Positions 3,265 through 22,342 of a DNA stretch of 64,000 nucleotides are shown piece by piece. Made by a program: the position numbers and the translations under genes. The number at the start of each line of letters is the position of its first letter. The first letter of the stretch is position 1. The notes under the pieces were generated by a model. It was given only the letters and a program-made list of their open reading frames with translations. It searched no databases and had not been told where the DNA came from. This DNA is from Pseudonocardia sp. (GTDB taxonomy: Bacteria > Actinomycetota > Actinomycetes > Mycobacteriales > Pseudonocardiaceae): the NCBI GenBank assembly GCA_025869365.1, contig JAOZVV010000002.1:11495-75494 (forward strand), given 5' to 3'.

Positions 3265-3487
3265 GATGCCTCCGGGTGTCGACGTTGACGATCCCCGGCG
3301 CTGGAGCACCGGGGAGGAGAAGCCGAGTCGCGCGGTCCACGGACCGGCGACTACTCGATGTGCGGATCGGAGTTCGAGCGCGATGCGCTCCGGGCGGCCC
3401 GGGACATCCCTGCCCGCTCCGCGTCGCGCTCGTCCTCGCCAGGTCTGCGTCGCGTCGGGGCGCGTCGCCTCCCTGCTCCGTGAGTGG

Positions 3488-3517
3488 CATATAAACAAAC
3501 ACTGGTTCGATAATCAA
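3488..3517 (-). promoter_or_regulatory. sigma-70-like promoter candidate (TTGATT-18 nt-TATATG) in an AT-rich patch
   Basis: Minus strand reads TTGATTatcgaaccagtgtttgttTATATG. It is the only AT-rich stretch in the 400-bp spacer upstream of the lipoprotein gene. Confidence 0.3.
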
Positions 3518-3554
3518 GTAGCCAGGAGATCGAGACAGCCTCGGATCCGGCGGT

Positions 3555-3591
3555 GAGGATCGGAGAAATCGGGCATCGGCACCGATTCCTC
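3555..3591 (-). terminator. nested hairpin downstream of the MFS gene (candidate intrinsic terminator)
   Basis: GAGGATCGG...CCGATTCCTC outer arms with an inner AATCGG/CCGATT stem. It lies 75 nt after the MFS stop. No clear U-tract. Confidence 0.35.
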
Positions 3592-3665
3592 GTCGCTCGC
3601 GGTGGACGTAAGTGACCGAACGTTTGGCTACGGGGCGCAGTCCCGGCCCGGTGTCGGTGGGCTGC

Positions 3666-4874
3666 TCACTCCGCCCGCGGCTCGTCCCGCACGGGAGTGA
3701 TCCCGATCGCGAGGGCCGGGGCGATCGCGGCCACCGCGAAGCCGACGGCGTAGCCGTACCCGCCGATGAGCGCGCCGAGTGCGACCGGCGCCACGGACGA
3801 CACGATGTTCTGCCCGGTGTTCTGGATCCCCAGGGCCTTGCCCGCCCAGGCGCTCCCGGCGATCTCGGCGACGGCGGTGAACGCGAGCCCGTTGTCCGCG
3901 ACGCTGACCACCGCCCCGACGGCCAGCGAGGTGATCGCCAGCCACGGCGCGACGAGATCCCCGAGCGCGAACGTCAGCAGGACGAGCGTCGCGCCGACGG
4001 CGAGCTGCCGCATCGGCCGCAGCCGCGAGCCGACCCGGTCCGACCACACGCCGCTCCCGATCCGGCCCGCCGCCCCGGCGATCTGCAGCACGGCGACGAA
4101 GGCGCCGGCGGCGGCCACTCCCCAGCCGTGCTCACGTACCAGGTACTCGGTGGAGAAGGCGGCGATCGCGAACTGCGGCACGACCAGCAGCGCGCTCGCC
4201 GAGTGGACCCGGAAGAGCAGCGGCGCGCCGTAGGGCGACCGTGCCTTCGCCTCGCCCTCGACGCGCGGCGGGCGGTAGGGGTCCGGGGCGAACACCGCCA
4301 CCAGGACGGACGAGAGCAGGCACAGTCCTGCCGGCAGTACCAGCGACGGGAACGCGCCCACGCTCGCGGCCAGGCTCGGCAGCGTCAGTCCCGCGATCCC
4401 GACGCCCAGGGGCTGCGCCGTCTGCCGGATGCCCATCGCGAGCCCGCGCTCGTCCCGCGGGAACCAGCCCATCACCATCCGCCCGCTGGCGGCGAACACG
4501 GAGGCGCCCGCCGCCCCGCCCGCCGCGAGCAGCGCGACCAGCAGTGCGGTCCCGGGATGCGGCAGGAACGCGACCAGCCCGACCGCGACGGCCTGGAGCG
4601 CGAGGCCACTCGCCATGATCCGGCGCTCGCCCCAGCGGTCCGCGGCGGCACCCCACAGGATCAGGGTCAGCAGCAGGCCGACGGTGGGTCCGGCGACGTA
4701 GAGGCCGGCCGCGGCGAGGGAGAGGTCGAGGGTGTCCCGCAGGGTCGGGACCAGGAACGGGAGACCGAAGACGAACGAGCAGGCCGAGGACTGCGCGAGC
4801 ACCCCGATCGCGAGGACGACCCACCTCCGTCGGGATCGCACCTGGTCCTTCGCGGTCGCGGGCGGGGTCGTCAT
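3666..4874 (-). CDS. MFS transporter
   Basis: 402-aa ORF with about 12 hydrophobic segments and the MFS loop motif GAAADRWGERR. Confidence 0.9.
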   Translation of the reverse strand: MTTPPATAKDQVRSRRRWVVLAIGVLAQSSACSFVFGLPFLVPTLRDTLDLSLAAAGLYVAGPTVGLLLTLILWGAAADRWGERRIMASGLALQAVAVGLVAFLPHPGTALLVALLAAGGAAGASVFAASGRMVMGWFPRDERGLAMGIRQTAQPLGVGIAGLTLPSLAASVGAFPSLVLPAGLCLLSSVLVAVFAPDPYRPPRVEGEAKARSPYGAPLLFRVHSASALLVVPQFAIAAFSTEYLVREHGWGVAAAGAFVAVLQIAGAAGRIGSGVWSDRVGSRLRPMRQLAVGATLVLLTFALGDLVAPWLAITSLAVGAVVSVADNGLAFTAVAEIAGSAWAGKALGIQNTGQNIVSSVAPVALGALIGGYGYAVGFAVAAIAPALAIGITPVRDEPRAE

Positions 4875-4922
4875 GAGTTCGGACCCTACGCGCCGGTATC
4901 GGATGCTGAGAATTCCGTCTCG

Positions 4923-5063
4923 CTATGCGAGATCCTGCTCGGTTCGGTCCCGCGTGTCGTGCAGGGGCAGCGGCGGCATCTTCCGTTCGAGCAGCGCCTT
5001 GACGACCGCTGTCACCGTCGCCAGGCCGACTATCGCCAGCACGATCCACACCATCACCGTCAT
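4923..5063 (-). CDS. small single-pass membrane protein (hypothetical)
   Basis: Internal ATG (aa 29) of ORF 4923..5147. MTVMVWIVLAIVGLATVTAVVKALLERKMPPLPLH... GGGAG upstream. No family recognised. Confidence 0.35.
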   Translation of the reverse strand: MTVMVWIVLAIVGLATVTAVVKALLERKMPPLPLHDTRDRTEQDLA

Positions 5064-5182
5064 CGCAGCTCCCGAGGCTGTTCGGTGGTCCGTTCGACGG
5101 GGTGAGACTAACGCCGGGGGTGTGTCCGGCCGACCCGGTCGGGGCAATGGAGTCGAACTGATGTTCGATCGCGCGTATCGTC

Positions 5183-5809: not shown

Positions 5810-5893
5810 CCGGCCGGCGATCGGGGCCCGTGCCCGTCGCCGGCCGGCAGGTCTCTCGCGATTGCGCCGTCGGGCGCTGGGTACCGTTGCCTC

Positions 5894-6526
5894 ATGGCGG
5901 AGCGGGCGGACGGGGGCCGAGGGATCGGCGCTGCGGTGCCCGAGCGTGAACGGTTGCTCGGGCTCGCCGCGGAGTACGTCCTGGAGCACGGGATCGCGGA
6001 CCTCACACTGCGCCGGCTCGGCTCCGCGATCGGCAGCAACAACCGGATGCTCCTGTACTACTTCGGGTCCAAGGAACAGCTGATCTCCCAAGCCCTGCTG
6101 GCGGCGTCGTACCGCTTCCCGACCTTCGCCGCCGCGTTGTCCGGGCTCGACGGGCCGGGCGCGCTGGCGGACCGTCTCGACGCGTGCTGGGCCGCCATCG
6201 CCGCGCCGGAGAACCGGCCGTTCGTCACGCTGTTCTTCGAGGTCTTCGGGGTCGCCGCGCACCGACCGGGCCGCTTCGACGAGTTCCTCACCCGGGTCGG
6301 CAACGACTGGACCAACGACGTCGCCCGGTCCCTGCGCACGGAAGGCCTGCCCGCCTCCGCCGCCCCGCCGATGGCGCGCGAGCTGGTCGCACTCTGGCGG
6401 GGCCTGCAGTTCGACCTGCTCTCCACCGGGGACGCGGAGACGGTGGCGGCCAGCCACACCGTCGCCGCCCGCGCGTTCGCCGAGCGCTGTGCGCGCCTCG
6501 GGGCGGGCACCCAGCCGGTCCGCTGA
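5894..6526 (+). CDS. TetR family transcriptional regulator
   Basis: HTH segment [43 protein letters not shown]. Confidence 0.85.
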
Positions 6527-6573
6527 CCGAACAGGGGGAGGACCGCGGGCCCGCGGGCGCATATCCTGCGGCG

Positions 6574-7188
6574 ATGCAGCGCAAGATCGGCGTCATGGGC
6601 GGCACGTTCGATCCCGTGCACAACGGGCACCTCGTCGCCGCCAGCGAGGTCGCCGACCGGTTCCAGCTGGACGAGGTGCTCTTCGTCCCCACCGGGGAGC
6701 CGTGGCAGAAGTCCGCGAAGTCCGTCAGCCCCGCGGAGGACCGCTACCTGATGACGGTCATCGCGACGGCCTCGAACCCGCGGTTCGGCACCAGCCGGGT
6801 CGACATCGAGCGCACGGGGCCGACCTACACGGCGGACACCCTCACCGACCTGGCTGCCGCGATGCCGGACGCCGAGCTCTACTTCATCACCGGTGCGGAC
6901 GCGCTGTCCCAGATCCTGTCCTGGCGCAAGGTCGAGGAGCTGTTCGAGCTCGCGCACTTCGTCGGTGTGACCCGGCCCGGGTACGAGCTGGCGGACACCC
7001 ATCTACCGGCCGGGTCCGTGACCCTCGTCGAGGTGCCGGCCATGGCGATCTCCTCGACGGACTGCCGGGAGCGCGTCGCCGAGGGACGGCCGGTCTGGTA
7101 CCTCGTGCCGGACGGCGTGGTCCAGTACATCTCGAAGCGGGGCCTCTACGCCTCGGACCGGCCGGCCGGCATCTCCTATCCCGCCTGA
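6574..7188 (+). CDS. nadD: nicotinate-nucleotide adenylyltransferase
   Basis: ATG at aa 131 of ORF 6184..7188. [20 protein letters not shown] (the (H/T)xGH motif) and a later ISSTDCR motif. Confidence 0.93.
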
Positions 7189-7331
7189 GCGGCACGCGGA
7201 CGCCCGGTCCGGCTGCCGCAGCCGGCCGACCCGCGCTTCCGGGCCCACGGGGCGCGGCTGCCACACTGGAACGGGCTGCACCCTCCGGTGGGCAGACCAG
7301 CGTGACGACGACGATCGGTACAGAAGGAGAC

Positions 7332-7745
7332 GTGACCTCAGTGGCGGCAACAGAAGTGGCACTCGAGATGGCCCGGGTGGCCGTGGCGGCCGCCGCCGAC
7401 AAGCTGGCCCAGAACATCACCGTGCTGGACGTGTCGGAGCAGCTCGTCATCACGGACCTGTTCGTGATCGCGTCCGCGCCGAACGAGCGCCAGGTGCAGG
7501 CCATCGTCGACGAGGTGGAGGAGAAGCTCCGCCTGCACGGTGTGAAGCCCACCCGCCGCGAGGGGGCCCGTGAGGGACGCTGGGTGCTGCTGGACTTCAC
7601 GGACATCGTGGTGCACGTGCAGCACACCGAGGAGCGCACCGTCTACGGCCTGGACCGGCTGTGGAAGGACTGCCCCCGGATCGAGTTCCCCGAGGCCCGG
7701 ACGGCGCCCGATGCGGACGACCCGGACGCGGTGATCGCCCCGTGA
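7332..7745 (+). CDS. rsfS: ribosome silencing factor RsfS (Iojap family)
   Basis: C-terminal 137 aa of ORF 6489..7745. GTG after GAAGGAGA. ...ITVLDVSEQLVITDLFVIASAPNERQVQAIVDEVEEKL...WVLLDFTDIVVHVQHTEER. Confidence 0.9.
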   Translation: MTSVAATEVALEMARVAVAAAADKLAQNITVLDVSEQLVITDLFVIASAPNERQVQAIVDEVEEKLRLHGVKPTRREGAREGRWVLLDFTDIVVHVQHTEERTVYGLDRLWKDCPRIEFPEARTAPDADDPDAVIAP

Positions 7746-8365
7746 GTCTGCGTCGCGTCGTCCTGCTGCGGCACGGGCAGACGGACTACAACGTGGCCGG
7801 ACGGATGCAGGGCCACCTGGACTCCCACCTCACCGAGGAGGGCCGCGCGCAGGCTCGCCGCGCCGCCCCGGTGATCGCCCGGATGTCCCTGGACCGCATG
7901 ATCAGCTCGGACCTCTGCCGGGCCGCGGACACCGCGGAGGAGATCTCCGCCGCCTCCGGGCTGGCGGTGAAGCTGGACCAGCGGCTGCGCGAGACACATC
8001 TCGGCGAGTGGCAGGGCCGCAGCGTCGGCGAGGTCGAGGTCGACTACCCGGGCGCGATCGCGGAGTGGCGCGGGGACCCGCGCTGGACCCCGCCCGGCGG
8101 CGAGTCGCGGCTGGACGTCGTGCAGCGCTCGCTGCCCGTCGTCCAGGAGATCGACGACGAGTACGCCGACGAGCCGGACGAGCAGTCCCTGCTGCTCGTG
8201 GCGCACGGCGGGATGATCGCCGGCATGGTCTGCGGGCTGCTGGCCCTGCCCGAGGCCACCTGGCCGATCATCGGCGGGATGGGCAACTGCAAGTGGGCCG
8301 TCGTCGCCCGGCGTGCGGACCACCCGCGCTGGCGGCTCTCCGGGTACAACATCGGTGTCACCTGA
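7742..8365 (+). CDS. histidine phosphatase family protein (glucosyl-3-phosphoglycerate phosphatase GpgP-like by synteny)
   Basis: GTG overlaps the rsfS stop (GTGA). RHG motif VVLLRHGQTDYN. Its position after rsfS matches the mycobacterial gpgP locus. Confidence 0.85.
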   Translation: MSLRRVVLLRHGQTDYNVAGRMQGHLDSHLTEEGRAQARRAAPVIARMSLDRMISSDLCRAADTAEEISAASGLAVKLDQRLRETHLGEWQGRSVGEVEVDYPGAIAEWRGDPRWTPPGGESRLDVVQRSLPVVQEIDDEYADEPDEQSLLLVAHGGMIAGMVCGLLALPEATWPIIGGMGNCKWAVVARRADHPRWRLSGYNIGVT

Positions 8366-9128
8366 CCTGTCCCCGCCCGGATCGTCGTCCGGGCCGCTCG
8401 TGCTCGTCCTGGGGGACTCCCTGGCCTTCCACGGGCCCGAGCGGGCGGAACCCGCGGATGATCCGCGGCTGTGGCCGAACGTCGCCGCCGCCGCGCTCGG
8501 CGGGCGGGCCGAGATCGTCGCGGGGATCGGGTGGACCGCCCGGCACGCCTGGACCGCCCTCACGCACGACCCCCGGGTCTGGGCGATGATGCCGCGGGTC
8601 GACGCCCTGGTGCTCGGCACGGGCGGGATGGACTCGCTCCCGTCGCCGCTGCCGACCGCCCTGCGCGAGCTCATCCCGGCGGTGCGCCCGGAGCGCGCCC
8701 GTCGCGTCGTGCGTGACGGCTACCTGCGTGCGCAACCCGCCCTGGCGCGGGCCCTCGCCCACCTCCCCGGGGGCGGTCCGGTCGCGCTGCCGCCGCGGCT
8801 CACCGTCTCCTACCTGCAACGATGCCGGGACGCGGTGCTCGCGCTACGGCCGGGGATCCCGGTCGTCGCGGCCCTGCCGTCGGTGCACCGCGCGGCCGTC
8901 TACGGGTGTGCGCACCCCGGTCGGGCCGCGACCGAGCAGGCCACGCGGGCGTGGGCGGCGAGCGCCGGCGCGCGCGTCCTGGACGTCGGGACGCTGGTCG
9001 CGGCGCACGTCCTGGGCGGGCACGGCAACCCCGACGGGATGCACTGGGGCTGGGCCGGGCACGGCCTCGTCGGCGCGACGCTCGGGGCGATCCTCGCTGG
9101 TGAGCTGGCAGACCGGGCCGGACAGTAG
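8355..9128 (+). CDS. SGNH/GDSL-like hydrolase/acyltransferase (OctT-like by synteny)
   Basis: GDS block LVLVLGDSLAF and a C-terminal DGMHW block. The start is uncertain (GTG 8355 overlaps the previous gene's end). Confidence 0.7.
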   Translation: MSPDLSPPGSSSGPLVLVLGDSLAFHGPERAEPADDPRLWPNVAAAALGGRAEIVAGIGWTARHAWTALTHDPRVWAMMPRVDALVLGTGGMDSLPSPLPTALRELIPAVRPERARRVVRDGYLRAQPALARALAHLPGGGPVALPPRLTVSYLQRCRDAVLALRPGIPVVAALPSVHRAAVYGCAHPGRAATEQATRAWAASAGARVLDVGTLVAAHVLGGHGNPDGMHWGWAGHGLVGATLGAILAGELADRAGQ

Positions 9129-15518: not shown

Positions 15519-16490
15519 GTGAGCCCCGCCGTGTCCCCTCCCGCCCCCGTGCAGCTGATCGTGGGCGAGGAGGAGCTGCTGGTCGAGCGGGCGGTGGGCG
15601 ACGTGCTGCGGGCCGCCCGCTCGGTGGATCCCGAGGCGGAGATCCGCCGGTTCCGTGCCTCGGAGATCAGCCCGGGGGAGCTGGCCGGTTTCCTGAGCCC
15701 GTCGTTGTTCGCCGAGGGCAGGGTCGTCGTGGTCGCGGCGGCGCACGAGGCGAACAAGGAGATGGCCGCGGCGCTCACCGCCTACGCGGACGACCCCGCC
15801 GAGGGCATCGTGCTGGTGGCGCTGCACGCGGGCGGGGCGCGGGGCAAGGCCCTCGGGGACGACCTGCGCAGGCGCGGCGCGCACGTCACCACCTGTGAGC
15901 GGATCACCCGGGCCGAGGCCCGCGCGGACTTCGTCCGGTCCGAGGTGCGCCGGGCGGGCGGTTCGATCAGCCCGGACGCCGTCGCGGCCCTGCTGGAGGC
16001 CGTCGGCTCGGACCTCCGCGAGCTCGCCGCGGCCACCGGCCAGCTCGTCGCGGACGCCGGCGGCGCGATCGACCTGCACGCCGTCCGCCGCTACCACCGC
16101 GGCCGGGCCGAGTCCTCGGGCTTCGCCGTCGCGGACAAGGCGGTGGCGGGGGACCGGTCCGGGGCGCTGGAGGCCTTGCGCTGGGCGCTCGTGCTGGGCG
16201 TCGCTCCCGTCCTGGTGGCGGACGCCCTGGCGGACGCGGTGCGCACGCTCGCGAAGGTCGGTGCCGCGGGGCGGGGTGACCCCAACCGGCTGGCCGGGGC
16301 GCTGGGGATGCCGCCCTGGAAGGTCCGCAAGGCCCAGGGGCAGGTCCGCTCGTGGCGGCCGGAGGGCCTCGCGGTCGCGATCGCGGCGACGGCGCAGGTC
16401 AACGCGGACGTCAAGGGTGCGGCCGCGGACTCGGGCTACGCCCTGGAACGAGCGGTCCTCGCGATCGTCGAGGCCCGCAACCCCCGCTGA
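15519..16490 (+). CDS. holA: DNA polymerase III subunit delta
   Basis: ORF 15186..16490. Conserved start region ...VQLIVGEEELLVERAV. Alternative GTG starts at 15471 (GGAG 8 nt upstream) and 15501. Confidence 0.85.
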   Translation: MSPAVSPPAPVQLIVGEEELLVERAVGDVLRAARSVDPEAEIRRFRASEISPGELAGFLSPSLFAEGRVVVVAAAHEANKEMAAALTAYADDPAEGIVLVALHAGGARGKALGDDLRRRGAHVTTCERITRAEARADFVRSEVRRAGGSISPDAVAALLEAVGSDLRELAAATGQLVADAGGAIDLHAVRRYHRGRAESSGFAVADKAVAGDRSGALEALRWALVLGVAPVLVADALADAVRTLAKVGAAGRGDPNRLAGALGMPPWKVRKAQGQVRSWRPEGLAVAIAATAQVNADVKGAAADSGYALERAVLAIVEARNPR

Positions 16491-16544
16491 TCCGCCGCTC
16501 GAGTGGCTCGAGCGGCGCCGGCTGGTGCTTGAGCGACTCGAGCG

Positions 16545-16598
16545 CCGGAGGCAGGTCGCGCACCGGAGGCACGCCAGGCACCGGAGGCACGACGAAGG
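16545..16598. repeat. imperfect 18-bp tandem repeat x3 (CCGGAGGCA-N9) in the holA/rpsT convergent spacer
   Basis: CCGGAGGCA recurs at 16545, 16563 and 16581. GCACCGGAGGCACG is duplicated exactly. Confidence 0.6.
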
Positions 16599-16623
16599 CG
16601 CCGCCCCATCGGGACGGCGCCTT
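16595..16623. terminator. GC-rich hairpin, candidate bidirectional terminator for rpsT and holA
   Basis: AAGGCGCCG-11 nt-CGGCGCCTT, a 9-bp perfect stem. It lies 18 nt beyond the rpsT stop. Confidence 0.55.
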
Positions 16624-16640
16624 GGTCAGGTGCTCAGAAC

Positions 16641-16904
16641 TTACGCGACGGCCTTCGCGCGCCGGGCCAGCGCCGACTTGCGGTTCGCGGCCTGGTTCTT
16701 GTGGATGACGCCCTTCGAGGCAGCCTTGTCCAGCGCCTTGGCGGCGGCCTTCTGGAGCTCCAGGGCCTTGTCGGTGTCACCGGCGTCGAGAGCCTCGCGG
16801 AAGTGCCGGACGGCCGTCTTCACGGAGGACTTGACCGCCTTGTTGCGCTGACGCGCCTTCTCGTTGGTCTTGACCCGCTTGATCTGGGACTTGATGTTCG
16901 CCAC
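16641..16904 (-). CDS. rpsT: 30S ribosomal protein S20
   Basis: GTG at aa 64 of ORF 16641..17093. [35 protein letters not shown]... Confidence 0.95.
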
Positions 16905-17101
16905 GCGATTTGCCTCGAGTCGTCGAAGATGTCTGCTGTTCGGGGCCCAGGCGACACCGAACTTGCACATCCGGTCGAGCACGCCGAGCACGCTTCTGCA
17001 CCATGCTAACAGCGACGACGACGCGCGGTTGAACCGCCCCGTTCCGGTGTGCGAGTGCTCCCGCGGTGCCGGGGCAGGTCCATGGTCGCACACGGTCCGC
17101 A

Positions 17102-17198
17102 GGGCCCGGACGCCGTCAGCAAGGGCCCGGACGCCGTCGGCAAGGACCCGGACGCCGTCGGCAAGGACCCGGACGCCGTCGGCAGGGACCCGGACGCG
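17102..17198. repeat. 21-bp tandem repeat, about 4.6 copies (GGGCCCGGACGCCGTCGGCAA-like)
   Basis: Units start at 17102, 17123, 17144, 17165 and 17186 with 0-2 mismatches. The array is intergenic, between divergent rpsT and the ATP-grasp operon. Confidence 0.9.
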
Positions 17199-17274
17199 CC
17201 CCGGTGAACGGGGACTCGGCCGATGTCACCGTGTGTGACGGTCGATCAGTCCGACCGTAACCCGCTCGTAGCAC

Positions 17275-18993
17275 GTGTCCGTATGGCTCCCCCTGCGCCG
17301 AGCGGTCAAGATTACCCACGTGAGCCGAGCAGTGGACCGCAGACCAGGCGCATCACGGGGTGCCCCCGTCAACCGCAACGGAGTCGAACGGACGGCGGAC
17401 TCGGCACTCTTCGACGGCTATCTCGAACCGGACCGCCCCCATCCGGACGCCTACGACGAGATGTTCGACGCCGACGGGACGGTCCGTGCCCCGTACCGCC
17501 AGCTCCACGACGCGATCGCCCCCACCGCGGCGGCGGACCTCACCGTCCGGTCCGAGGCGCTGGACCGCGCCTACCTGGACCAGGGCATCACGTTCTCGCT
17601 GTCCGGCAAGGAGCGTCCGTTCCCGCTGGACATCGTGCCGCGGGTGATCAGCTCGGCGGAGTGGAACAAGCTGCAGCGCGGCATCGTGCAGCGGGTGAAG
17701 GCGCTCGAGGCCTTCCTCGCCGACGTCTACGGGGACGCCCAGATCGTCCGGGACGGGGTGCTGCCGCGCCGGCTCATCACCAGCTGCGAGCACTTCAAGC
17801 GCTCCGCGCACCAGCTCAACCCGCCCAACGGCGTCCGCATCCACGTCGCCGGGATCGACCTGGTGCGGGACGCGGAAGGCACCTTCCGGGTGCTGGAGGA
17901 CAACCTGCGCAACCCGTCGGGGGTCTCCTACGTGATGGAGAACCGCCGGACGATGGCGCGCGTCTTCCCGGACCTGTTCACCCGCCAGCGGGTGCGCGCG
18001 GTCGGGGACTACTCCACCCACCTGCTGCACGCCCTGCGCGTCGCGGCCGCGCCGAACGTCGCGGATCCGACGGTCGTCGTGCTGACCCCCGGCGTCTACA
18101 ACTCCGCGTACTTCGAGCACTCGCTGCTCGCCCGGCAGATGGGTGTCGAGCTCGTCGAGGGGCGTGACCTGTTCTGCCGGGACAACATCGTCTACATGCG
18201 GACGACGGAGGGCGAGCAGCGCGTCGACGTCGTCTACCGCCGCATCGACGACGACTTCCTGGACCCGCTGCAGTTCAAGCCCACGAGCGTGCTCGGGGTC
18301 GCCGGGATCATGAACGCCGCCCGCGCCGGGAACGTGGTGATCGCGAACGCGGTCGGCAACGGCGTCGGCGACGACAAGCTCGTCTACACCTACGTCCCGG
18401 ACATGATCAAGTACTACCTCGACGAGAAGCCGGTCCTCCCCAACGTCTCGACGTTCCGGTGCTGGCTCGACGAGGAGTGCGGGCACGTCATCGACACCCT
18501 CGACGAGCTCGTCCTCAAACCCGTCGAGGGCTCCGGCGGCTACGGGATCCTGTTCGGCCCCAACGCCTCCCGGAAGGAGCTCGCCGACGCGCGCAAGTCC
18601 ATCCGGGCGGACCCGCGCGGCTGGATCGCCCAGCCCGTCGTCCAGCTCTCCACCGTCCCCACCCGGGTCGACGACCGGCTGGTCCCGCGGCACGTGGACC
18701 TGCGGCCCTTCGCGGTCAACGACGGCGAGAACGTGTTCGTCCTGCCCGGCGGCCTCACCCGGGTGGCCCTGCCGAAGGGCAGCCTCGTCGTCAACTCCAG
18801 CCAGGGCGGCGGGAGCAAGGACACCTGGGTGCTGGCCCCGAACCGCGCGCCGGAGGCCGAGCGGGAGCTCGGCCAGGCCGGTCTGGCGTCCCCGATCGGC
18901 CCGGTCCAGGCCCCGGCGGCCGAGCACGGCCCGGAGCTGACGATCGGCCAGCAACAGCAGCAACAGCAGCAACAGCAGGGATGTGACGACTAG
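17275..18993 (+). CDS. circularly permuted type-2 ATP-grasp protein (COG2308-like) with C-terminal poly-Gln tail
   Basis: ...YDEMFDADGTVRAPYRQL...QGITFSL...PFPLDIVPRVIS..EW..L.RGIVQRVKALEAFLADVYG... is family-typical. The start is uncertain (GTG 17275 or 17320). Confidence 0.88.
   Translation: MSVWLPLRRAVKITHVSRAVDRRPGASRGAPVNRNGVERTADSALFDGYLEPDRPHPDAYDEMFDADGTVRAPYRQLHDAIAPTAAADLTVRSEALDRAYLDQGITFSLSGKERPFPLDIVPRVISSAEWNKLQRGIVQRVKALEAFLADVYGDAQIVRDGVLPRRLITSCEHFKRSAHQLNPPNGVRIHVAGIDLVRDAEGTFRVLEDNLRNPSGVSYVMENRRTMARVFPDLFTRQRVRAVGDYSTHLLHALRVAAAPNVADPTVVVLTPGVYNSAYFEHSLLARQMGVELVEGRDLFCRDNIVYMRTTEGEQRVDVVYRRIDDDFLDPLQFKPTSVLGVAGIMNAARAGNVVIANAVGNGVGDDKLVYTYVPDMIKYYLDEKPVLPNVSTFRCWLDEECGHVIDTLDELVLKPVEGSGGYGILFGPNASRKELADARKSIRADPRGWIAQPVVQLSTVPTRVDDRLVPRHVDLRPFAVNDGENVFVLPGGLTRVALPKGSLVVNSSQGGGSKDTWVLAPNRAPEAERELGQAGLASPIGPVQAPAAEHGPELTIGQQQQQQQQQQGCDD
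18949..18978 (+). repeat. in-frame (CAG/CAA)10 microsatellite encoding Q10 near the C-terminus of the ATP-grasp protein
   Basis: cagcaacagcagcaacagcagcaacagcag is a 9-bp unit x3 plus one extra codon. The protein ends ...TIGQQQQQQQQQQGCDD. Confidence 0.9.
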
Positions 18994-19937
18994 TGCTCGC
19001 CCGCAACGCCGAGTCCCTCTACTGGATCGGGCGCTACGTGGAGCGTGCGGACGACACCGCCCGGATCCTCGACGTGTCCGTCCACCAGCTGCTCGAGGAC
19101 GCCACCATCGACGTCGACGCGGCCGCGCGCCGTCTCCTCGGCGTCCTCGGGATCGAGCCCGGCACCGAGGAGCCGCTCGACGCGTTCTCGCTGACCGAGG
19201 CGGTCGGCTATGCCGCGGACTCGCCCGGCTCGATCGTCTCGTCCCTGACCAGTGCCCGGGAGAACGCCCGCGGCGCCCGCGAGGTGGTCTCCTCCGAGAT
19301 GTGGGAGTGCCTCAACGCCACCTGGAACGCCCTGCCCGAGCGGCAGCGCTACGCCCGGTGGGTGGGCCCGCACGCGTTCTTCTCCTACGTGGAGGACCGC
19401 GCCGCGATGTTCTCCGGGCTCGCGGCGTCGACCATGAGCCGGGACGACAGCTGGCGCTTCTACCTGCTCGGCCGCTCCGTCGAGCGGGTCGACATGATCG
19501 TCCGGTTGCTGATGAGCCGCGTGTCGGACCGGATGAGCTCGCCGGGCTGGCTGCTCGTGCTGCGCTCCGCGGGCGCGCAGGACACCTACCTGCGGACCTA
19601 CCGCGGTGCCGTCGACGCCATCCGGGTCGTGCAGTTCATGCTGATGGACCGGCTGTTCCCGCGCTCGGTGTTCCACTCCCTCGCCGAGGCGGAGAGCTGC
19701 CTGCAGCAGCTGGACAACCGGCCCACCGCGCGGGTCGGGGCGAACGCGGAGGCGCTGCGGCTGCTCGGCCGCGCTCGCAGCGAGCTGGAGTTCCTCCGCC
19801 CGGAGGAGCTGCTCGACGACCTGCCGGCCCAGCTGCTGGGCCTGCAGGAATGCATCCGGGACGTCGGCGAGGCCGTGTCCCTGCAGTTCTTCCACGCCGC
19901 CCCCTGGGTCGCCTGGACGGCACCGGAGGTCGTGTGA
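18993..19937 (+). CDS. alpha-E domain protein (COG2307-like)
   Basis: MLARNAESLYWIGRYVERADDTARILDV... is the canonical N-terminus. GTG overlaps the upstream stop. Confidence 0.9.
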   Translation: MLARNAESLYWIGRYVERADDTARILDVSVHQLLEDATIDVDAAARRLLGVLGIEPGTEEPLDAFSLTEAVGYAADSPGSIVSSLTSARENARGAREVVSSEMWECLNATWNALPERQRYARWVGPHAFFSYVEDRAAMFSGLAASTMSRDDSWRFYLLGRSVERVDMIVRLLMSRVSDRMSSPGWLLVLRSAGAQDTYLRTYRGAVDAIRVVQFMLMDRLFPRSVFHSLAEAESCLQQLDNRPTARVGANAEALRLLGRARSELEFLRPEELLDDLPAQLLGLQECIRDVGEAVSLQFFHAAPWVAWTAPEVV

Positions 19938-20779
19938 TGGGTTGGCGGATCAGAGTCGTGCACGAGACCGGCTACCACTACAACGCGCCGGTCCACGAGA
20001 GCTACAACGAGGTGCGGCTGACCCCGCGCAGCGACGGCCACCAGAACGTGATCGTCAACCGCATCGAGACGGTGCCGGCCACCCGGTCCTACCGGTACGA
20101 GGACTACTGGGGCACCCAGGTCACGGCGTTCGACCTGCACGCCCCGCACACCGAGCTGCACGTCACCGGGACGTCGGTCGTGGAGACCGGCGACGAGGTC
20201 GAGCCGGTCGCCACGGCCACGTGGGAGGACCTCGCGAGCGAGCCCGTCCGGGACCGCTACACCGAGATGCTGGAGTTCACCGAGTACGTCACGAAGGACC
20301 CGGCGCTGACCGAGGTGGCCCGCGGGATCAAGCGCGCCAACGCCCCCGTCGACGCGGTGGCGGCCGCCTGCCGGTGGGTGCACGAGAACATGACCTACCA
20401 GGCCGGGACGACGGGCGTGCACACCTCGGCGCCCGAGGCCCTGGCGGCGGGCGAGGGCGTGTGCCAGGACTTCGTGCACCTCTCGCTGGTGCTGCTGCGC
20501 GAGATGGGCGTCCCGTCCCGGTACGTGTCCGGATACCTGTTGCCGCGCAAGGACACCGCGGTCGGTGAGACGGTCAGCGGGGAGAGCCACGCCTGGATCG
20601 AGGCCCGCACCGGCGGCTGGTGGGGATACGACCCGACGAACGACATGCGGATCGGCGAGCGTCACGTCTGGGTCGCGGTCGGGCGGGACTACGCGGACGT
20701 CTCGCCGATCAAGGGCATCTACTCCGGGGGCTCGGCCGAGGCCCTGGACGTCACCGTGGACATGACCCGGCTCGCCTGA
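19937..20779 (+). CDS. transglutaminase-like cysteine-protease-fold protein with N-terminal bacterial TGase domain
   Basis: ATG overlaps the upstream TGA. Catalytic-core motifs GEGVCQDFVHL ... SHAWIE ... YDPTN (Cys-His-Asp). Confidence 0.9.
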   Translation: MGWRIRVVHETGYHYNAPVHESYNEVRLTPRSDGHQNVIVNRIETVPATRSYRYEDYWGTQVTAFDLHAPHTELHVTGTSVVETGDEVEPVATATWEDLASEPVRDRYTEMLEFTEYVTKDPALTEVARGIKRANAPVDAVAAACRWVHENMTYQAGTTGVHTSAPEALAAGEGVCQDFVHLSLVLLREMGVPSRYVSGYLLPRKDTAVGETVSGESHAWIEARTGGWWGYDPTNDMRIGERHVWVAVGRDYADVSPIKGIYSGGSAEALDVTVDMTRLA

Positions 20780-20801
20780 GCGTTCCACGGGACCGGGGTG
20801 C

Positions 20802-21500
20802 TCAGGTGCCGGTCGTGCCCCGTTCCAGCCGGGTGAGCCGGGCGCGGATGTCCTCCAGGACGGTCCGCACCGGCGCGCTCAGCCCGGCGGCGGCCTGCTG
20901 GGTCCGCGTGAACGCGATGCCGGCGACGGCCGCGCCGACGGCCGTGCGCGCCGCCCTCCGGTCCACCCCGGTGGACGCGAGCGCGGCGCGGACCGGGTCC
21001 TCGGCCGGGCCGCCGGCCAGGCCGAGCAGCAGGTGCTCGCAGCCGATGTAGTTGTGCTCCAGGCGCACTGCCTCCTCCGTGGACCGGACGAGGGTGGACG
21101 CGAGGTCCGCGGGCGCCGCGCCCGCCCGCGCGGCGAGCCCGCGCGCCTCCGAGAGCAGGTCCGGCGGCTCGACCCCGAGCGCCGCGAGCACGGTGAGCGC
21201 GAGGTTCTCGCCCTCCGCGACGACGCCGGCGAGCAGGTCGACCGAGGTGGCCGGATTGTCCCGCTCCTCGCCCGCCCGCAGCGCGGAGCGGACGGCGGTG
21301 CGGGCGCGGGCCGTCATCCGGGTCCAGCCGGGCGTGTCCGCTTGCGGGTTCTCGGTCATGCGCGCTCCTTGCGGGCTCTCCCCGGTCGACGCCGACACCG
21401 CGTCGGCGAGGGCCCGCTGGCACACCGAGGAGACGGGGATCCCCGCCTCCCGCACGGCTGCGGCGAGCTCGTCGGGCAGGTACACGTTGATCTTCGGCAC
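20802..21500 (-). CDS. ribbon-helix-helix-like N-terminus fused to a Clp N-terminal (Clp_N repeat) domain
   Basis: GTG start with GGAG 6 nt upstream. MPKINVYLPDELAAAVREAGIPVSSVCQRALADAV is antitoxin/CopG-like. Later ...LEHNYIGCEHLLLGL and ...DLLAGVVAEGENLALTVL resemble Clp_N repeats. Confidence 0.7.
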   Translation of the reverse strand: MPKINVYLPDELAAAVREAGIPVSSVCQRALADAVSASTGESPQGARMTENPQADTPGWTRMTARARTAVRSALRAGEERDNPATSVDLLAGVVAEGENLALTVLAALGVEPPDLLSEARGLAARAGAAPADLASTLVRSTEEAVRLEHNYIGCEHLLLGLAGGPAEDPVRAALASTGVDRRAARTAVGAAVAGIAFTRTQQAAAGLSAPVRTVLEDIRARLTRLERGTTGT

Positions 21501-21516
21501 GGCGACTCCGGATCTG

Positions 21517-21538
21517 GGGTTATAGGTAGGGTTATAAT
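21517..21538. promoter_or_regulatory. direct repeat GGGTTATA-N4-GGGTTATA in an AT-rich patch; candidate operator and -10 (TATAAT) region
   Basis: ggggttataggtagggttataatc lies between the divergent RHH::Clp_N gene and the hydrolase gene. TATAAT is at 21533..21538. Confidence 0.35.
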
Positions 21539-21589
21539 CCCAGACGTGGCCCGTCGCAAGTGTCGGTCCCCGCCGCTACCGTGCGCCCC

Positions 21590-22342
21590 ATGACCGTCGT
21601 CCTCGTCCATGGGAACCCCGAGACCGCCGCCGTATGGGATCTCCTGGTCCCGCTGCTCGAGCCGTCGCCCGTCGTCCGGCTGTCCCCGCCGGGGTTCGGC
21701 GCGCCGGTTCCCGAGGGCTTCGGCGCCACGATGACCGAGTACCGGGACTGGTTGATCGACGAGCTCACCGGGATCGTCGCCCGGGAGGGCGCCGTGGATC
21801 TCGTGGGCCATGACTGGGGCGGCGGCCACGTGGTGAACGTCGCGATGGCCCGGCCGGACCTGCTGCGCAGCTGGGCGAGCGACGTCGTCGGCGTCTTCGA
21901 CCCGGAGTACGTGTGGCACGAGCTGGCGCAGGTGTGGCAGACGCCGGAGGCGGGCGAGCAGGCGGTGGCACGGATGGTCGCGGCGCCCGTCGGCGCCCGG
22001 GCGTCCGTCCTGGCCGGGCGGGGCATGGACGCGCGGGTGGCCGAGCGGGTCGCCGCGGGCATGGACGAGGCCATGGCGCAGAGCATCCTGCGGCTCTACC
22101 GCTCGGCGGCGCAGCCGGTGCTGGCCGAGGCGGGCAGGGACCTGGAGCAGGCCGCACGCCGGCCGGGACTCGCGATCCAGGCGTCGGAGGACCACATGGT
22201 CGGCACGGACGAGCAGCGGCTCCGTGCGGCGGCCCGGGCGGGCGCGCGGGTCGAGGTGCTCGACGGTCTCGGGCATTGGTGGATGGCCGAGGACCCGGCG
22301 CGTGGCGCGGCGGTGCTCAACCGGTTCTGGGCGGGCCTGTAG
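21590..22342 (+). CDS. alpha/beta hydrolase
   Basis: MTVVLVHGNPETAAVW... and nucleophile elbow VGHDWGG. An alternative GTG start is at 21560. Confidence 0.85.
   Translation: MTVVLVHGNPETAAVWDLLVPLLEPSPVVRLSPPGFGAPVPEGFGATMTEYRDWLIDELTGIVAREGAVDLVGHDWGGGHVVNVAMARPDLLRSWASDVVGVFDPEYVWHELAQVWQTPEAGEQAVARMVAAPVGARASVLAGRGMDARVAERVAAGMDEAMAQSILRLYRSAAQPVLAEAGRDLEQAARRPGLAIQASEDHMVGTDEQRLRAAARAGARVEVLDGLGHWWMAEDPARGAAVLNRFWAGL

What the first reader, a model, noticed from the sequence alone, without database searches (positions are those of the whole stretch)
17275..20779. Translationally coupled circularly-permuted ATP-grasp / alpha-E / transglutaminase-like operon: a conserved system of unknown function
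Three genes are linked by overlapping stop/start codons (TAGTG and TGATG). Together they encode the COG2308-type permuted ATP-grasp, the alpha-E domain protein and a Cys-His-Asp transglutaminase/protease-fold protein.

As I recall, comparative genomics from the Aravind group's amidoligase survey predicted this triad to be a peptide-ligation/modification or peptide-tagging system. In other phyla it is sometimes linked to the Anbu proteasome homologue. No substrate or phenotype is established. In this window the same triad sits next to rpsT, as I recall for M. tuberculosis (Rv2411c-Rv2409c).

Here it carries extra oddities: a repeat array upstream, a poly-Q tail, and a Clp_N-domain gene convergent downstream.
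Basis: partly seen in the sequence, partly recalled or inferred. Interest (0 to 1): 0.7.

Follow-up and report, generated by a model that had tools for sequence, protein, structure and literature searches.

The report
Permuted ATP-grasp, alpha-E, transglutaminase-like operon
This is an ordinary Pseudonocardia copy of a widespread three-gene enzyme set (the M. tuberculosis Rv2411c-Rv2409c type) whose job is still unknown; its glutamine-repeat tail is shared across the Actinomycetota sampled and suggests an experiment.

Summary
Three co-directional genes, joined by 1-nt stop/start overlaps (TAGTG, TGATG), encode three proteins:
- a circularly permuted ATP-grasp (Pfam E 1e-158 to 3e-163);
- an Alpha-E protein (E 2e-81);
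- a transglutaminase-like protein with an intact Cys-His-Asp triad.

rpsT lies divergently upstream, with the same synteny and overlaps as in an M. tuberculosis contig.

This is the known triad of unknown function, and an Anbu proteasome homologue joins it in 9 of 80 sampled loci, none of them actinobacterial. I found no published substrate.

The three "oddities" differ in weight:
- **21-nt repeat array:** strain-specific and absent from the closest relative.
- **Clp_N gene:** not conserved next to the triad.
- **Poly-Q tail:** not local. It occurs in 25 of 31 Actinomycetota loci, including M. tuberculosis, and in 0 of 49 loci from other phyla. Its codons are mixed CAA/CAG.

Two further lines bear on function. 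Published transcriptomes show nitrogen-starvation induction of homologues in Pseudomonas, Burkholderia and M. smegmatis. Domain fusions link the ligase to Alpha-E, transglutaminase-like, GCS2 and glutaminase domains.

My best reading is a nitrogen-limitation-responsive module that makes and breaks amide bonds on a glutamate or gamma-glutamyl-type substrate. The locus is a new member of a known kind, of moderate interest.

The parts
16641..16904 (-). rpsT (ribosomal protein S20), divergent upstream neighbour. It is synteny context, not part of the system.
   Evidence: Pfam Ribosomal_S20p 4.6e-29. The same holA-rpsT(-)-triad order is seen in Mycobacterium, Rhodococcus, Nocardia and Cellulomonas loci and in the M. 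tuberculosis contig L087.
17101..17197 (.). Tandem repeat of 21 nt, 4.6 copies (unit AGGACCCGGACGCCGTCGGCA). It is a strain-specific minisatellite in the rpsT/operon intergenic region and is not a conserved part of the system.
   Evidence: TRF score 166, 96% matches. There are no copies elsewhere in the window. It is absent from the closest relative L081 and from L083-L086. RNA folding is no better than shuffles, z = +0.98. The 41-aa ORF that runs through it (17082..17207) is not conserved.
17255..17319 (+). Conserved upstream block, a putative promoter or operator. It contains a GlnR-box-like GTAAC-n6-GTAGC (17257-17272) and the near-palindrome GGTCAAGATTACC.
   Evidence: The block is nearly invariant in five Pseudonocardia loci, while the rest of the intergenic region is not. 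The GlnR-like match has 1 mismatch, but such matches are not enriched in the window: 19 found against 27 expected. The consensus promoter scan found nothing. Any function here is inferred only.
17320..18993 (+). Circularly permuted ATP-grasp ligase (COG2308 type, Rv2411c orthologue). GTG 17320 is the likely start; the longest ORF begins at 17275.
   Evidence: Pfam CP_ATPgrasp_2 3.2e-163 and CP_ATPgrasp_1 1.2e-158. E 6e-156 to PDB 3N6X over residues 58-520 of the longest ORF. It is 74% identical over the best aligned segment to the homologues in two Mycobacterium loci.
18835..18990 (+). C-terminal tail of the ATP-grasp, specific to Actinomycetota. Layout: linker, then a conserved GPELT motif (18928-18942), then Gln x10 (18949-18978), then GCDD.
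   Evidence: The tail follows the end of the catalytic core (KDTWVL). A Q-run of 4 or more occurs in 115 of 119 Pseudonocardiales homologues, and the GP[ED][LM][TS] motif in 111. A Q-run of 4 or more occurs in 25 of 31 Actinomycetota loci against 0 of 49 other loci. The M. tuberculosis tail ends ...QQPQQQQQQQQQQAFH. CAA codons make up 3 of 10 in the tract against 5 of 290 elsewhere in the window (p = 0.0014), and 59 of 189 against 52 of 375 across 24 loci (p = 2e-6). AF2 gives it low confidence or disorder.
18993..19937 (+). Alpha-E protein (Rv2410c orthologue). It is all-helical and an internal duplication of a module of about 140 residues. Each half carries a GRxxER motif: E17-R18 at 19041-19046 and E164-R165 at 19482-19487.
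   Evidence: Pfam Alpha-E 2.3e-81. The ER motifs are conserved in 74-75 of 75 homologues. hhalign of the N-half against the C-half gives probability 99.2%, E 1e-19. No PDB relative was found by sequence, profile or Foldseek. It is fused to the ATP-grasp in 48 of 149 cluster representatives.
19937..20779 (+). Transglutaminase-like Cys-His-Asp enzyme (Rv2409c orthologue). Catalytic residues: Cys176 (20462-20464), His218 (20588-20590), Asp232 (20630-20632).
   Evidence: Pfam Bact_transglu_N 2.6e-21 and Transglut_core 1.1e-21. E 2.8e-14 to PDB 3ISR, a putative cysteine protease. The triad is conserved in 62-63 of 64 homologues across phyla.
20802..21500 (-). Convergent pair: a Clp_N-domain protein (20802..21359) and a 48-aa CcdA-like ribbon-helix-helix protein (21356..21500). 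They are neighbours, not part of the system.
   Evidence: Pfam Clp_N 2.2e-10 and CcdA 5e-5. No Clp_N homologue lies next to the triad in any of the 80 genome loci. Among Pseudonocardia relatives it is present only in P. pini (L083) and absent in L081, L085 and L086.

Best explanation
The region is the Pseudonocardia orthologue of the M. tuberculosis Rv2411c-Rv2410c-Rv2409c operon. It belongs to the widespread triad of permuted ATP-grasp, Alpha-E and transglutaminase-like genes.

**Shown**
- The three proteins are made from one translationally coupled message.
- The cysteine enzyme keeps all its catalytic residues, and the ligase matches its Pfam models over their full length and is closely similar to the solved structure 3N6X.
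- In many other genomes the ligase is physically fused to Alpha-E.

**Inferred mechanism**
- The ATP-grasp enzyme uses ATP to activate a carboxylate as an acyl-phosphate and joins it to an amine, forming an amide or peptide bond.
- Alpha-E, a duplicated helical protein with two Glu-Arg motifs, is its obligate non-catalytic partner, acting as a substrate adaptor or regulator.
- The Cys-His-Asp transglutaminase-like enzyme hydrolyses or transfers the same kind of bond. The set is therefore a make-and-break pair, like the synthetase/amidase of E. coli glutathionylspermidine synthetase.
- Fusions to GCS2 ligases and to glutaminase point to a glutamate or gamma-glutamyl-type substrate.
- Homologues in three genera are induced by nitrogen starvation, which points to a role under nitrogen limitation.
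- Whether the acceptor is a small molecule or a protein is not known.

The poly-Q tail is a conserved, flexible, actinobacterial addition to the ligase. It most likely presents a short docking or substrate-like motif to a partner.
For: **Identity**
- PDB relatives are 3N6X (E 6e-156) and 3ISR.
- Orthology and synteny with M. tuberculosis: the P0417 cluster is named M. tuberculosis and is 551 aa long. L087 reads holA, rpsT(-), ATP-grasp, Alpha-E, transglutaminase-like, with overlaps at 6656 and 7633.

**Functional coupling**
- The triad order is conserved in 80 loci across phyla.
- Among 149 cluster representatives there are 48 ATP-grasp+Alpha-E fusions and one ATP-grasp+transglutaminase-like fusion.
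- The Cys-His-Asp triad is conserved in 62-63 of 64 homologues, and both ER motifs in 74-75 of 75.

**Chemistry**
- The Yersinia orthologue releases orthophosphate from ATP (PMC6376114).
- Six GCS2+ATP-grasp fusions and one glutaminase+ankyrin+ATP-grasp fusion exist.

**Physiology**
- P. putida PP_2685-2688 is induced on nitrate compared with ammonium, listed among candidate nitrogen-sensitive promoters (PMC8050072).
- B. cenocepacia I35_5080-83 depends on NtrC and sigma-54 (PMC5491218).
- M. smegmatis msmeg_4570 and msmeg_4569 are 3.3-3.5-fold higher in wild type than in a glnR mutant under nitrogen starvation (PMC4222082). MSMEG_4572 is holA, so 4570 and 4569 are the ATP-grasp and Alpha-E genes by synteny.

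**Tail**.
Against: - No substrate, product or phenotype is known for any member.
- Co-expression pull-downs using Yersinia Anbu as bait detected no specific interaction with the other operon proteins. Interactions among the three triad proteins themselves were not tested.
- Rv2411c lysate did not make GABA-trehalose. This excludes only that one reaction.
- The nitrogen link in Actinomycetota rests on one microarray study and on assigning locus tags by synteny. The GlnR-like box in this window is no better than chance.
- The GCS2 and glutaminase fusions lie in more distant family members (39-45% identity) and may not share the substrate of this subfamily.
- A paralogous M. tuberculosis transglutaminase-like protein, Rv2569c, has been reported as a secreted protease that cleaves host E-cadherin (PMC11081392). 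That does not fit an intracellular make-and-break cycle.
- The structure predictions were too poor to support any docking of the tail (pLDDT 50.6).
Confidence: 0.55

Rival explanations
1. **Protein or peptide tagging system (Iyer/Aravind model).** The ATP-grasp ligates amino-acid or peptide tags, such as poly-Glu as made by TTL or RimK, onto target proteins. The transglutaminase-like enzyme is the peptidase that removes the tags. Where Anbu is present, it degrades or de-tags the marked proteins.
For: - The prediction is published (PMC3495828; PMC6376114).
- A proteasome-family gene is linked in 9 of 80 loci.
- The transglutaminase-like fold commonly acts on proteins.
- The long disordered tail on the actinobacterial ligase could be a protein-protein docking element.
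Against: - No tagged protein has ever been reported.
- Anbu showed no peptidase activity and no complex with the operon proteins.
- No small conserved tag gene is present. The only small ORF nearby, in the repeat array, is not conserved.
- GCS2 and glutaminase fusions resemble small-molecule pathways such as glutathione synthesis.
- The closest solved structure was deposited as a putative glutathionylspermidine synthase.
Confidence: 0.25
2. **The poly-Q tail is a tethered substrate or switch.** The transglutaminase-like enzyme deamidates, transamidates or cleaves the Gln run of the ligase. Gln-to-Glu conversion would resemble Dop acting on the C-terminal Gln of Pup. This would switch ligase activity or assembly according to nitrogen status.
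For: - Transglutaminase-fold enzymes act on Gln side chains (established family chemistry).
- The Q-run is conserved in 25 of 31 Actinomycetota loci and absent from 49 others. It is also present in M. tuberculosis.
- Interspersed CAA/CAG codons are consistent with selection to keep the Gln run while avoiding slippage.
- A conserved GPELT motif precedes the run.
- Every actinobacterial locus with a Q-run and enough downstream sequence also has the transglutaminase-like gene.
Against: - The evidence is purely correlative. The transglutaminase-like gene is equally present in phyla whose ligase has no tail, so the tail cannot be its primary substrate.
- A Deinococcus locus has a long Ser/Gln-rich tail but no transglutaminase-like gene within 4.7 kb.
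- Arthrobacter and some Acidimicrobiia lack the Q-run yet keep the triad.
- AF2 gave no confident contact for the tail.
- A Q-run could instead be a spacer or a helix-forming oligomerisation element.
Confidence: 0.15
3. **The local oddities form one extended system.** The repeat array would encode a repeated precursor peptide (41-aa ORF, GPDAVGK heptads) that the ATP-grasp modifies, and the Clp_N protein would be a dedicated partner.
For: - The ORF 17082..17207 lies on the same strand just upstream of the ligase.
- Its reading frame has G or C at all seven third positions of the repeat unit (read directly).
- Its repeats contain Lys and Asp, as in graspetide cores.
Against: - The array and its ORF are absent from the closest relative, whose Alpha-E is 98% identical, and from four other Pseudonocardia loci.
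- Third-position GC of a repeated unit is not independent evidence for coding.
- Clp_N is absent next to the triad in all 80 genome loci and in 3 of 4 distinct Pseudonocardia relatives.
Confidence: 0.03

Closest known systems
M. tuberculosis Rv2411c-Rv2410c-Rv2409c (M. smegmatis MSMEG_4570-4568 by synteny)
   Same: Same three domains, order, 1-nt stop/start overlaps and divergent rpsT/holA neighbours. The ligase also has a poly-Q tail. The ligase is 73-74% identical over the best aligned segment to the homologues in three other Mycobacterium loci.
   Different: Different genus. Tail details differ: there is no GPELT motif in mycobacteria, where the Q-run is preceded by a Q/P-rich stretch. Downstream neighbours also differ. 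The mycobacterial operon is equally uncharacterised.
Anbu operon of Proteobacteria, Cyanobacteria and Acidobacteria (Yersinia bercovieri, Pseudomonas; Valas and Bourne 2008; Piasecka et al. 2018)
   Same: ATP-grasp, Alpha-E and transglutaminase-like genes in the same order. The ligase is about 50-55% identical. ATP hydrolysis has been shown for the Yersinia ligase, and the operon is induced by nitrogen starvation.
   Different: There is no Anbu (proteasome-like) fourth gene here or in any actinobacterial locus sampled. The proteobacterial ligases end 2-20 residues after KDTWVL and have no poly-Q tail.
E. coli glutathionylspermidine synthetase/amidase (Gss) and bifunctional glutathione synthetase GshF (from established knowledge of these enzymes)
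   Same: The logic is the same. An ATP-dependent amide ligase is paired with a papain-like Cys-His amidase that reverses the bond (Gss), or a gamma-glutamyl ligase is fused to an ATP-grasp for sequential peptide synthesis (GshF, compare the GCS2+ATP-grasp fusions). PDB 3N6X was deposited as a putative glutathionylspermidine synthase.
   Different: The ATP-grasp here is circularly permuted. The amidase has a transglutaminase fold rather than a CHAP domain and is a separate protein. Alpha-E has no counterpart. No substrate has been shown.
TTL and RimK polyglutamylases with their reversing peptidases
   Same: These are ATP-grasp ligases that add amino acids to protein carboxylates. The Aravind group's model treats the triad as an analogous tag-and-remove system.
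   Different: They belong to a different ATP-grasp clade. No target protein is known. The adjacency to rpsT is divergent synteny only and is not evidence that S20 is a target.
Pup-Dop-PafA pupylation (Actinobacteria)
   Same: It is actinobacterial, couples a carboxylate-amine ligase with a deamidase, and depends on a C-terminal Gln that is converted to Glu. This is conceptually close to the 'poly-Q switch' reading.
   Different: PafA and Dop have the glutamine-synthetase/GCS2-like fold, not the ATP-grasp fold. Pup is a separate small protein, and no such gene is present here.

Membership tests
Circularly permuted ATP-grasp (Pfam PF04174/PF14403; COG2308) | Full-length match to the family models above the curated cut-offs | tested here: met
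   543.5 and 527.8 bits against cut-offs of 32 and 23.1, covering model positions 1-374/374 and 1-332/332.
Circularly permuted ATP-grasp (Pfam PF04174/PF14403; COG2308) | Close similarity to a solved member of the family | tested here: met
   E 6.1e-156 to 3N6X_A over 463 residues.
Circularly permuted ATP-grasp (Pfam PF04174/PF14403; COG2308) | ATP-dependent carboxylate-amine ligase activity | not testable with these tools
   The only data are phosphate release from ATP by the Yersinia orthologue (PMC6376114).
Alpha-E (Pfam PF04168; COG2307) | Full-length Pfam match and the conserved Glu-Arg motif | tested here: met
   274.2 bits against a cut-off of 20.8, model positions 1-294/294. E17-R18 and E164-R165 are conserved in 74-75 of 75 homologues. 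The two halves are homologous.
Transglutaminase-like superfamily with bacterial N-terminal region (PF01841 + PF08379; COG1305) | Both domains present, with an intact Cys-His-Asp triad | tested here: met
   77.5 and 76.6 bits. C176, H218 and D232 align with the triad motifs of 3ISR and are conserved in 62-63 of 64 homologues.
Transglutaminase-like superfamily with bacterial N-terminal region (PF01841 + PF08379; COG1305) | Demonstrated peptidase, amidase or transamidase activity | not testable with these tools
The paralogue Rv2569c has been reported as a protease (PMC11081392).
ATP-grasp / Alpha-E / transglutaminase-like triad system (Iyer et al. 2009; 'Anbu operon' core) | Three genes adjacent, co-directional and in this order, conserved across phyla | tested here: met
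   Window layout. The same order is seen in the great majority of 80 loci.
ATP-grasp / Alpha-E / transglutaminase-like triad system (Iyer et al. 2009; 'Anbu operon' core) | Fourth gene encoding Anbu (a proteasome beta-like protein). This is optional and defines the Anbu-operon subtype only. | tested here: not met
   The gene after the transglutaminase-like gene here is a convergent Clp_N gene. Anbu was found in 9 of 80 loci, none of them actinobacterial. The window is therefore the Anbu-less subtype.
Rv2411c-Rv2409c orthologous group (Actinomycetota subtype) | holA-rpsT(-) upstream synteny, overlapping stop/start codons, and a C-terminal poly-Q tail on the ligase | tested here: met
   Window. 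M. tuberculosis contig L087 and tail. Other Actinomycetota.
Graspetide/RiPP-type ATP-grasp cluster (considered because of the repeat ORF upstream) | A conserved precursor-peptide gene next to the ligase | tested here: not met
   ORF 17082..17207 and its repeat array are absent from all five related Pseudonocardia loci.
GlnR nitrogen regulon (Actinomycetota) | A GlnR box (GTnAC-n6-GnAAC) in the promoter, plus GlnR-dependent induction | tested here: inconclusive
   One 1-mismatch site lies at 17257-17272 in the conserved upstream block, but such sites are not enriched in the window: 19 found against 27 expected. GlnR dependence is known only for the M. smegmatis orthologues.

The most novel reading that the evidence does not exclude
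The conserved poly-Q tail of the actinobacterial ligase may be a built-in glutamine substrate or switch for the operon's own transglutaminase-like enzyme. The tail occurs in 25 of 31 Actinomycetota loci, including M. tuberculosis Rv2411c, and in 0 of 49 loci from other phyla. Gln-to-Glu deamidation, transamidation or clipping of the tail would control the ligase according to nitrogen status. This would be an intramolecular counterpart of the Gln-to-Glu activation of Pup by Dop. It would also be the first defined substrate for any member of this triad, which was first described in 2008-2009.
Probability: 0.15. Interest if true: 0.75.

Novelty: new member of a known kind. Interest (0 to 1): 0.45.

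Why it matters
The triad is one of the most widespread bacterial gene sets still without a function. At least 2,682 representatives of 50%-identity clusters match the ligase at E below 1e-30, and M. tuberculosis carries it. This window adds only another orthologue.

The comparison it prompted gives three practical handles:
- **Condition:** nitrogen limitation appears to be a shared inducing condition in Pseudomonas, Burkholderia and M. smegmatis, so it is the condition under which to look for a phenotype.
- **Chemistry:** fusions to Alpha-E, GCS2 and glutaminase narrow the likely chemistry to glutamate or gamma-glutamyl amide bonds.
- **Substrate candidate:** the actinobacterial poly-Q tail sits on the ligase, whose operon also encodes a glutamine-directed enzyme fold. 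The idea can be tested in vitro with intact-mass spectrometry.

If any of these pays off in M. smegmatis or M. tuberculosis, it would assign a function to Rv2411c-Rv2409c and, by extension, to the Anbu operons.

Tried and rejected
1. **Repeat array as a precursor peptide or regulatory array.** Rejected. It is absent from the closest relatives, has no dispersed copies and shows no RNA structure signal (z = +0.98).
2. **Clp_N/RHH pair as system partners.** Rejected. They are not conserved next to the triad.
3. **Rfam scan of 16400-21700.** Only a sub-threshold chance snoRNA match.
4. **Consensus promoter and terminator scan.** Nothing useful.
5. **GlnR-box search.** One plausible site was found, but such sites are not enriched, so it remains only a lead.
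6. **Alpha-E structure.** The AF2 model is mediocre (pLDDT 64.8, pTM 0.68). Foldseek against the PDB gave no hit below E 0.4. phmmer and a 63-sequence profile against PDB sequences gave nothing credible.
7. **AF2 of the full ligase, to see whether the tail docks.** The model is too poor to interpret (pLDDT 50.6, pTM 0.38). The alignment contained only Pseudonocardiales sequences.
8. **NCBIfam.** No curated model matches any of the three proteins.
9. **Crude clustering of neighbours in the 80 loci.** No further universally conserved partner emerged. ORF calling in high-GC DNA was noisy, so this is weak negative evidence.
10. **Iyer et al. 2009 (PMC3268129).** It could not be read. Its content is cited only through papers that quote it.
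11. **Pfam census of all 149 representatives in one call.** It was replaced by a local Alpha-E profile plus targeted Pfam scans.
12. **rpsT adjacency as a functional clue (an S20-modifying RimK analogue).** Not supported. The genes are divergent, and the adjacency is seen in 8 of the 31 actinobacterial GTDB loci, besides the Pseudonocardia relatives and the M. tuberculosis contig.

Full report
**1. What is in the sequence**

The window has about 73% G+C. The Alpha-E protein is 100% identical to one from a Pseudonocardia sp. metagenome-assembled genome. The ligase is 93% identical to its best database hit and 87-88% identical to named Pseudonocardia species.

Three + strand ORFs occupy 17275..18993, 18993..19937 and 19937..20779.
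- The stop TAG (18991-18993) of gene 1 shares its G with the GTG start of gene 2.
- The stop TGA (19935-19937) of gene 2 shares its A with the ATG start of gene 3.

Pfam assigns the following:
- Gene 1: CP_ATPgrasp_2 and CP_ATPgrasp_1 (3.2e-163 and 1.2e-158, full model length).
- Gene 2: Alpha-E (2.3e-81, full length).
- Gene 3: Bact_transglu_N plus Transglut_core (2.6e-21 and 1.1e-21).

The wider neighbourhood is the usual actinobacterial backbone. It reads DegV, comEC, a PLP enzyme (-), holA, rpsT (-), the triad, Clp_N (-), an RHH gene (-), a hydrolase, a TetR regulator and further genes, then lepA.

The one correction concerns the start of gene 1.
- In the nearest relative (L081) the stretch upstream of the consensus start has GCG in place of the GTG and contains an in-frame TGA.
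- The Pseudonocardia relatives start at an ATG that reads ATT in this window (17311).
- The invariant GTG at 17320 is the probable start.

**2. The three proteins look functional and work together**

- **Ligase.** It matches the solved Methylobacillus protein 3N6X, deposited as a putative glutathionylspermidine synthase, at E 6e-156.
- **Transglutaminase-like protein.** It matches the putative cysteine protease 3ISR. Its Cys176, His218 and Asp232 are conserved in 62-63 of 64 homologues from many phyla.
- **Alpha-E.** It has two Glu-Arg motifs (E17-R18 and E164-R165), conserved in 74-75 of 75 homologues. Its two halves are homologous to each other (hhalign probability 99.2%, E 1e-19), so it is an internal duplication. 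No solved structure resembles it by sequence, profile or fold, although my model was only moderate (pLDDT 64.8).

The gene order ATP-grasp, Alpha-E, transglutaminase-like recurs in nearly all of 80 genome loci spread over Actinomycetota, Bacteroidota, Planctomycetota, Acidobacteriota, Pseudomonadota, Verrucomicrobiota and others.

I surveyed the best 149 representatives of 50%-identity clusters for domain fusions:

| Fusion partner of the ATP-grasp | Representatives |
|---|---|
| Alpha-E | 48 |
| Transglutaminase-like module | 1 |
| GCS2 carboxylate-amine ligase | 6 |
| Glutaminase plus ankyrin repeats | 1 |

The Alpha-E and transglutaminase-like fusions argue for physical cooperation. The GCS2 fusions recall the two-ligase glutathione enzyme GshF. 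The glutaminase fusion points to glutamate or glutamine chemistry.

**3. Comparison with M. tuberculosis and with Anbu operons**

A mycobacterial query retrieved a 551-aa protein whose cluster members are named M. tuberculosis. Its contig reads comEA, comEC, holA, rpsT (-), ATP-grasp (5001-6656), Alpha-E (6656-7633), transglutaminase-like (7633-8472). The synteny and the 1-nt overlaps are the same as here.

The rpsT/holA adjacency appears in 8 of the 31 actinobacterial GTDB loci: Mycobacterium, Rhodococcus, Nocardia, Cellulomonas and two uncultured lineages. It also appears in the Pseudonocardia relatives. The genes are divergent, so I read this as inherited synteny and not as a functional link.

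A proteasome-family gene follows the triad in Pseudomonas and Glaciimonas loci. It occurs in 9 of 80 loci overall, none of them actinobacterial.

**4. The three 'oddities'**

(a) **Repeat array.** The 21-nt array (17101-17197) is real and far beyond chance. It is missing from the closest relative, whose Alpha-E is 98% identical, and from four other Pseudonocardia loci. It has no dispersed copies and no RNA-structure signal. A 41-aa ORF with GPDAVGK repeats runs through it and looked briefly like a precursor peptide, but it is not conserved. I regard the array as a strain-specific minisatellite.

(b) **Clp_N gene.** With its small RHH partner, it is absent next to the triad in all 80 loci. It is present in only one of the distinct Pseudonocardia relatives. 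It is incidental.

(c) **Poly-Q tail.** This is the opposite of a local oddity.
- After the end of the catalytic core (KDTWVL), 115 of 119 Pseudonocardiales homologues carry a tail of 40-79 residues containing a Gln run, most often of 8-9. In 111 of them a GP[ED][LM][TS] motif precedes it.
- A run of at least 4 Gln is present in 25 of 31 Actinomycetota loci: Kribbella, Mycobacterium, Rhodococcus (19 Gln), Nocardia, Actinoplanes, Microbacterium, Cellulomonas, Nocardioides and some Acidimicrobiia.
- It is present in 0 of 49 loci from other phyla, where the protein ends 2-20 residues after KDTWVL. Fisher p is about 1e-14.
- 120 mycobacterial homologues mostly have runs of 5-6, and the M. tuberculosis protein has 10.
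- The tract uses CAA far more than the surrounding genes do. In this window it is 3 of 10 against 5 of 290 (p = 0.0014). Across 24 loci it is 59 of 189 against 52 of 375 (p = 2e-6). This pattern is expected if the amino-acid run is kept while slippage-prone pure CAG repeats are avoided.
- Many tails end in Cys. This is a by-product of an ATGCTGA/GTGCTGA overlap with the Alpha-E start.

I found no paper describing the tail, but the searchable library is limited.

**5. What is known about function**

- The Aravind group's model is a peptide ligase whose tags are removed by the transglutaminase-like peptidase.
- Experimentally, the Yersinia ligase releases phosphate from ATP. Anbu shows no peptidase activity, and pull-downs with Anbu as bait detected no specific complex.
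- Rv2411c lysate did not make GABA-trehalose.
- The paralogue Rv2569c has been reported as a protease cleaving host E-cadherin.
- Expression data agree across three genera:
  - P. putida PP_2685-2688 is induced on nitrate compared with ammonium, among candidate nitrogen-sensitive promoters.
  - B. cenocepacia I35_5080-83 is strongly dependent on NtrC and sigma-54.
  - M. smegmatis msmeg_4570 and msmeg_4569 depend on GlnR under nitrogen starvation. MSMEG_4572 is holA, so these are the ligase and Alpha-E genes by synteny.
- In this window a GlnR-like box lies in a conserved upstream block, but the match is no better than chance.

**6. Best explanation and rivals**

I commit to a nitrogen-limitation-responsive module that makes and breaks amide bonds.
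- The ATP-grasp, with Alpha-E as obligate partner, ligates a carboxylate to an amine.
- The Cys-His-Asp enzyme hydrolyses or transfers that bond.
- The substrate is probably a glutamate or gamma-glutamyl-type compound.

What is shown is the identity of the genes, their coupling, the conserved catalytic residues, the fusions and the expression pattern of homologues. What is inferred is the chemistry, the substrate and the role of Alpha-E.

Rivals:
- Protein tagging remains open, at about 0.25.
- The most novel reading is that the poly-Q tail is a tethered substrate or switch for the transglutaminase-like enzyme. I put this at about 0.15. It is attractive chemically, but the support is only correlative. 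The transglutaminase-like gene is just as conserved where no tail exists, and one Deinococcus locus has a Q/S-rich tail without that gene nearby.
- The idea that the repeat array and Clp_N belong to the system is rejected.

**7. Verdict**

The finding is accurate, and the operon is an ordinary orthologue of a known but uncharacterised system. It is a new member of a known kind. Its interest lies in the open question itself and in the practical handles listed above, not in anything unique to this window. Interest 0.45.

Noticed in passing
window 17255-17345: A block of about 90 nt spanning the operon start is nearly invariant in five Pseudonocardia loci, while the rest of the intergenic region diverges. 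It holds a near-palindrome, GGTCAAGAT(G/T)ACC, and a run of codons that end in A (CGA, GCA, AGA, CCA). It may be an operator or 5' regulatory element, or a leaderless start. There is no Rfam match.
   Followed up: partly
window 17311-17322: The consensus ATG start of the ligase in related Pseudonocardia reads ATT in this window. The conserved GTG three codons downstream (17320) is the likely start.
   Followed up: partly
L081 3280-5001 (Pseudonocardia sp. T1-2H, GCA_038039215.1): In the closest relative the ligase gene is split between two reading frames (ORFs 3308..4096 and 3280..5001) and was not called as a gene. This is either a frameshift pseudogene or an assembly error. Some database entries (P0051, P0083) are also frameshifted in or before the tail.
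   Followed up: no
window 18993-19937: Alpha-E is an internal duplication. Residues 8-143 align to about 155-297, each half carrying a GRxxERAD/ExTAR motif (hhalign probability 99.2%). No solved structure is related to it.
   Followed up: yes
P0266, P0291, P0296, P0300, P0302, P0367 (representatives): Distant family members fuse the permuted ATP-grasp to a GCS2 carboxylate-amine ligase (six cases). One fuses it to an EF-hand, a glutaminase and ankyrin repeats.
   Followed up: partly
L040 4675-6500 (Deinococcus sp. MAG): This is the only non-actinobacterial ligase with a long tail. The tail is 156 residues, rich in Ser-Gln repeats, and no transglutaminase-like gene lies within the locus. An Aeromicrobium ligase (L063) has a (Thr-Gln)n run instead of poly-Q.
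   Followed up: no
L012-L025 and other actinobacterial loci, ligase/Alpha-E junction: Many actinobacterial ligase tails end in Cys. The Alpha-E start ATGCTGA/GTGCTGA is read as ..TGC TGA in the ligase frame, giving an overlap of about 8 nt instead of the 1-nt overlap seen here.
   Followed up: partly
window 20802-21500 (-): A 48-aa CcdA-like ribbon-helix-helix gene overlaps the start of a 185-aa Clp_N-domain gene (ATGA overlap at 21356-21359). The pair resembles a small two-gene module of unknown function. P. pini has a Clp_N gene at the same position.
   Followed up: no
window 16545-16591: A second small tandem repeat lies between the convergent holA and rpsT genes. It has period 18 (9-nt sub-period) and 2.6 copies.
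   Followed up: no
L042, L044, L077 and L043, L048, L050, L051, L057, L066, L072, L080: Many non-actinobacterial loci carry a second, divergent ATP-grasp copy (30-37% identical) close to the first, some with its own Alpha-E gene. The system is therefore often duplicated in tandem.
   Followed up: no
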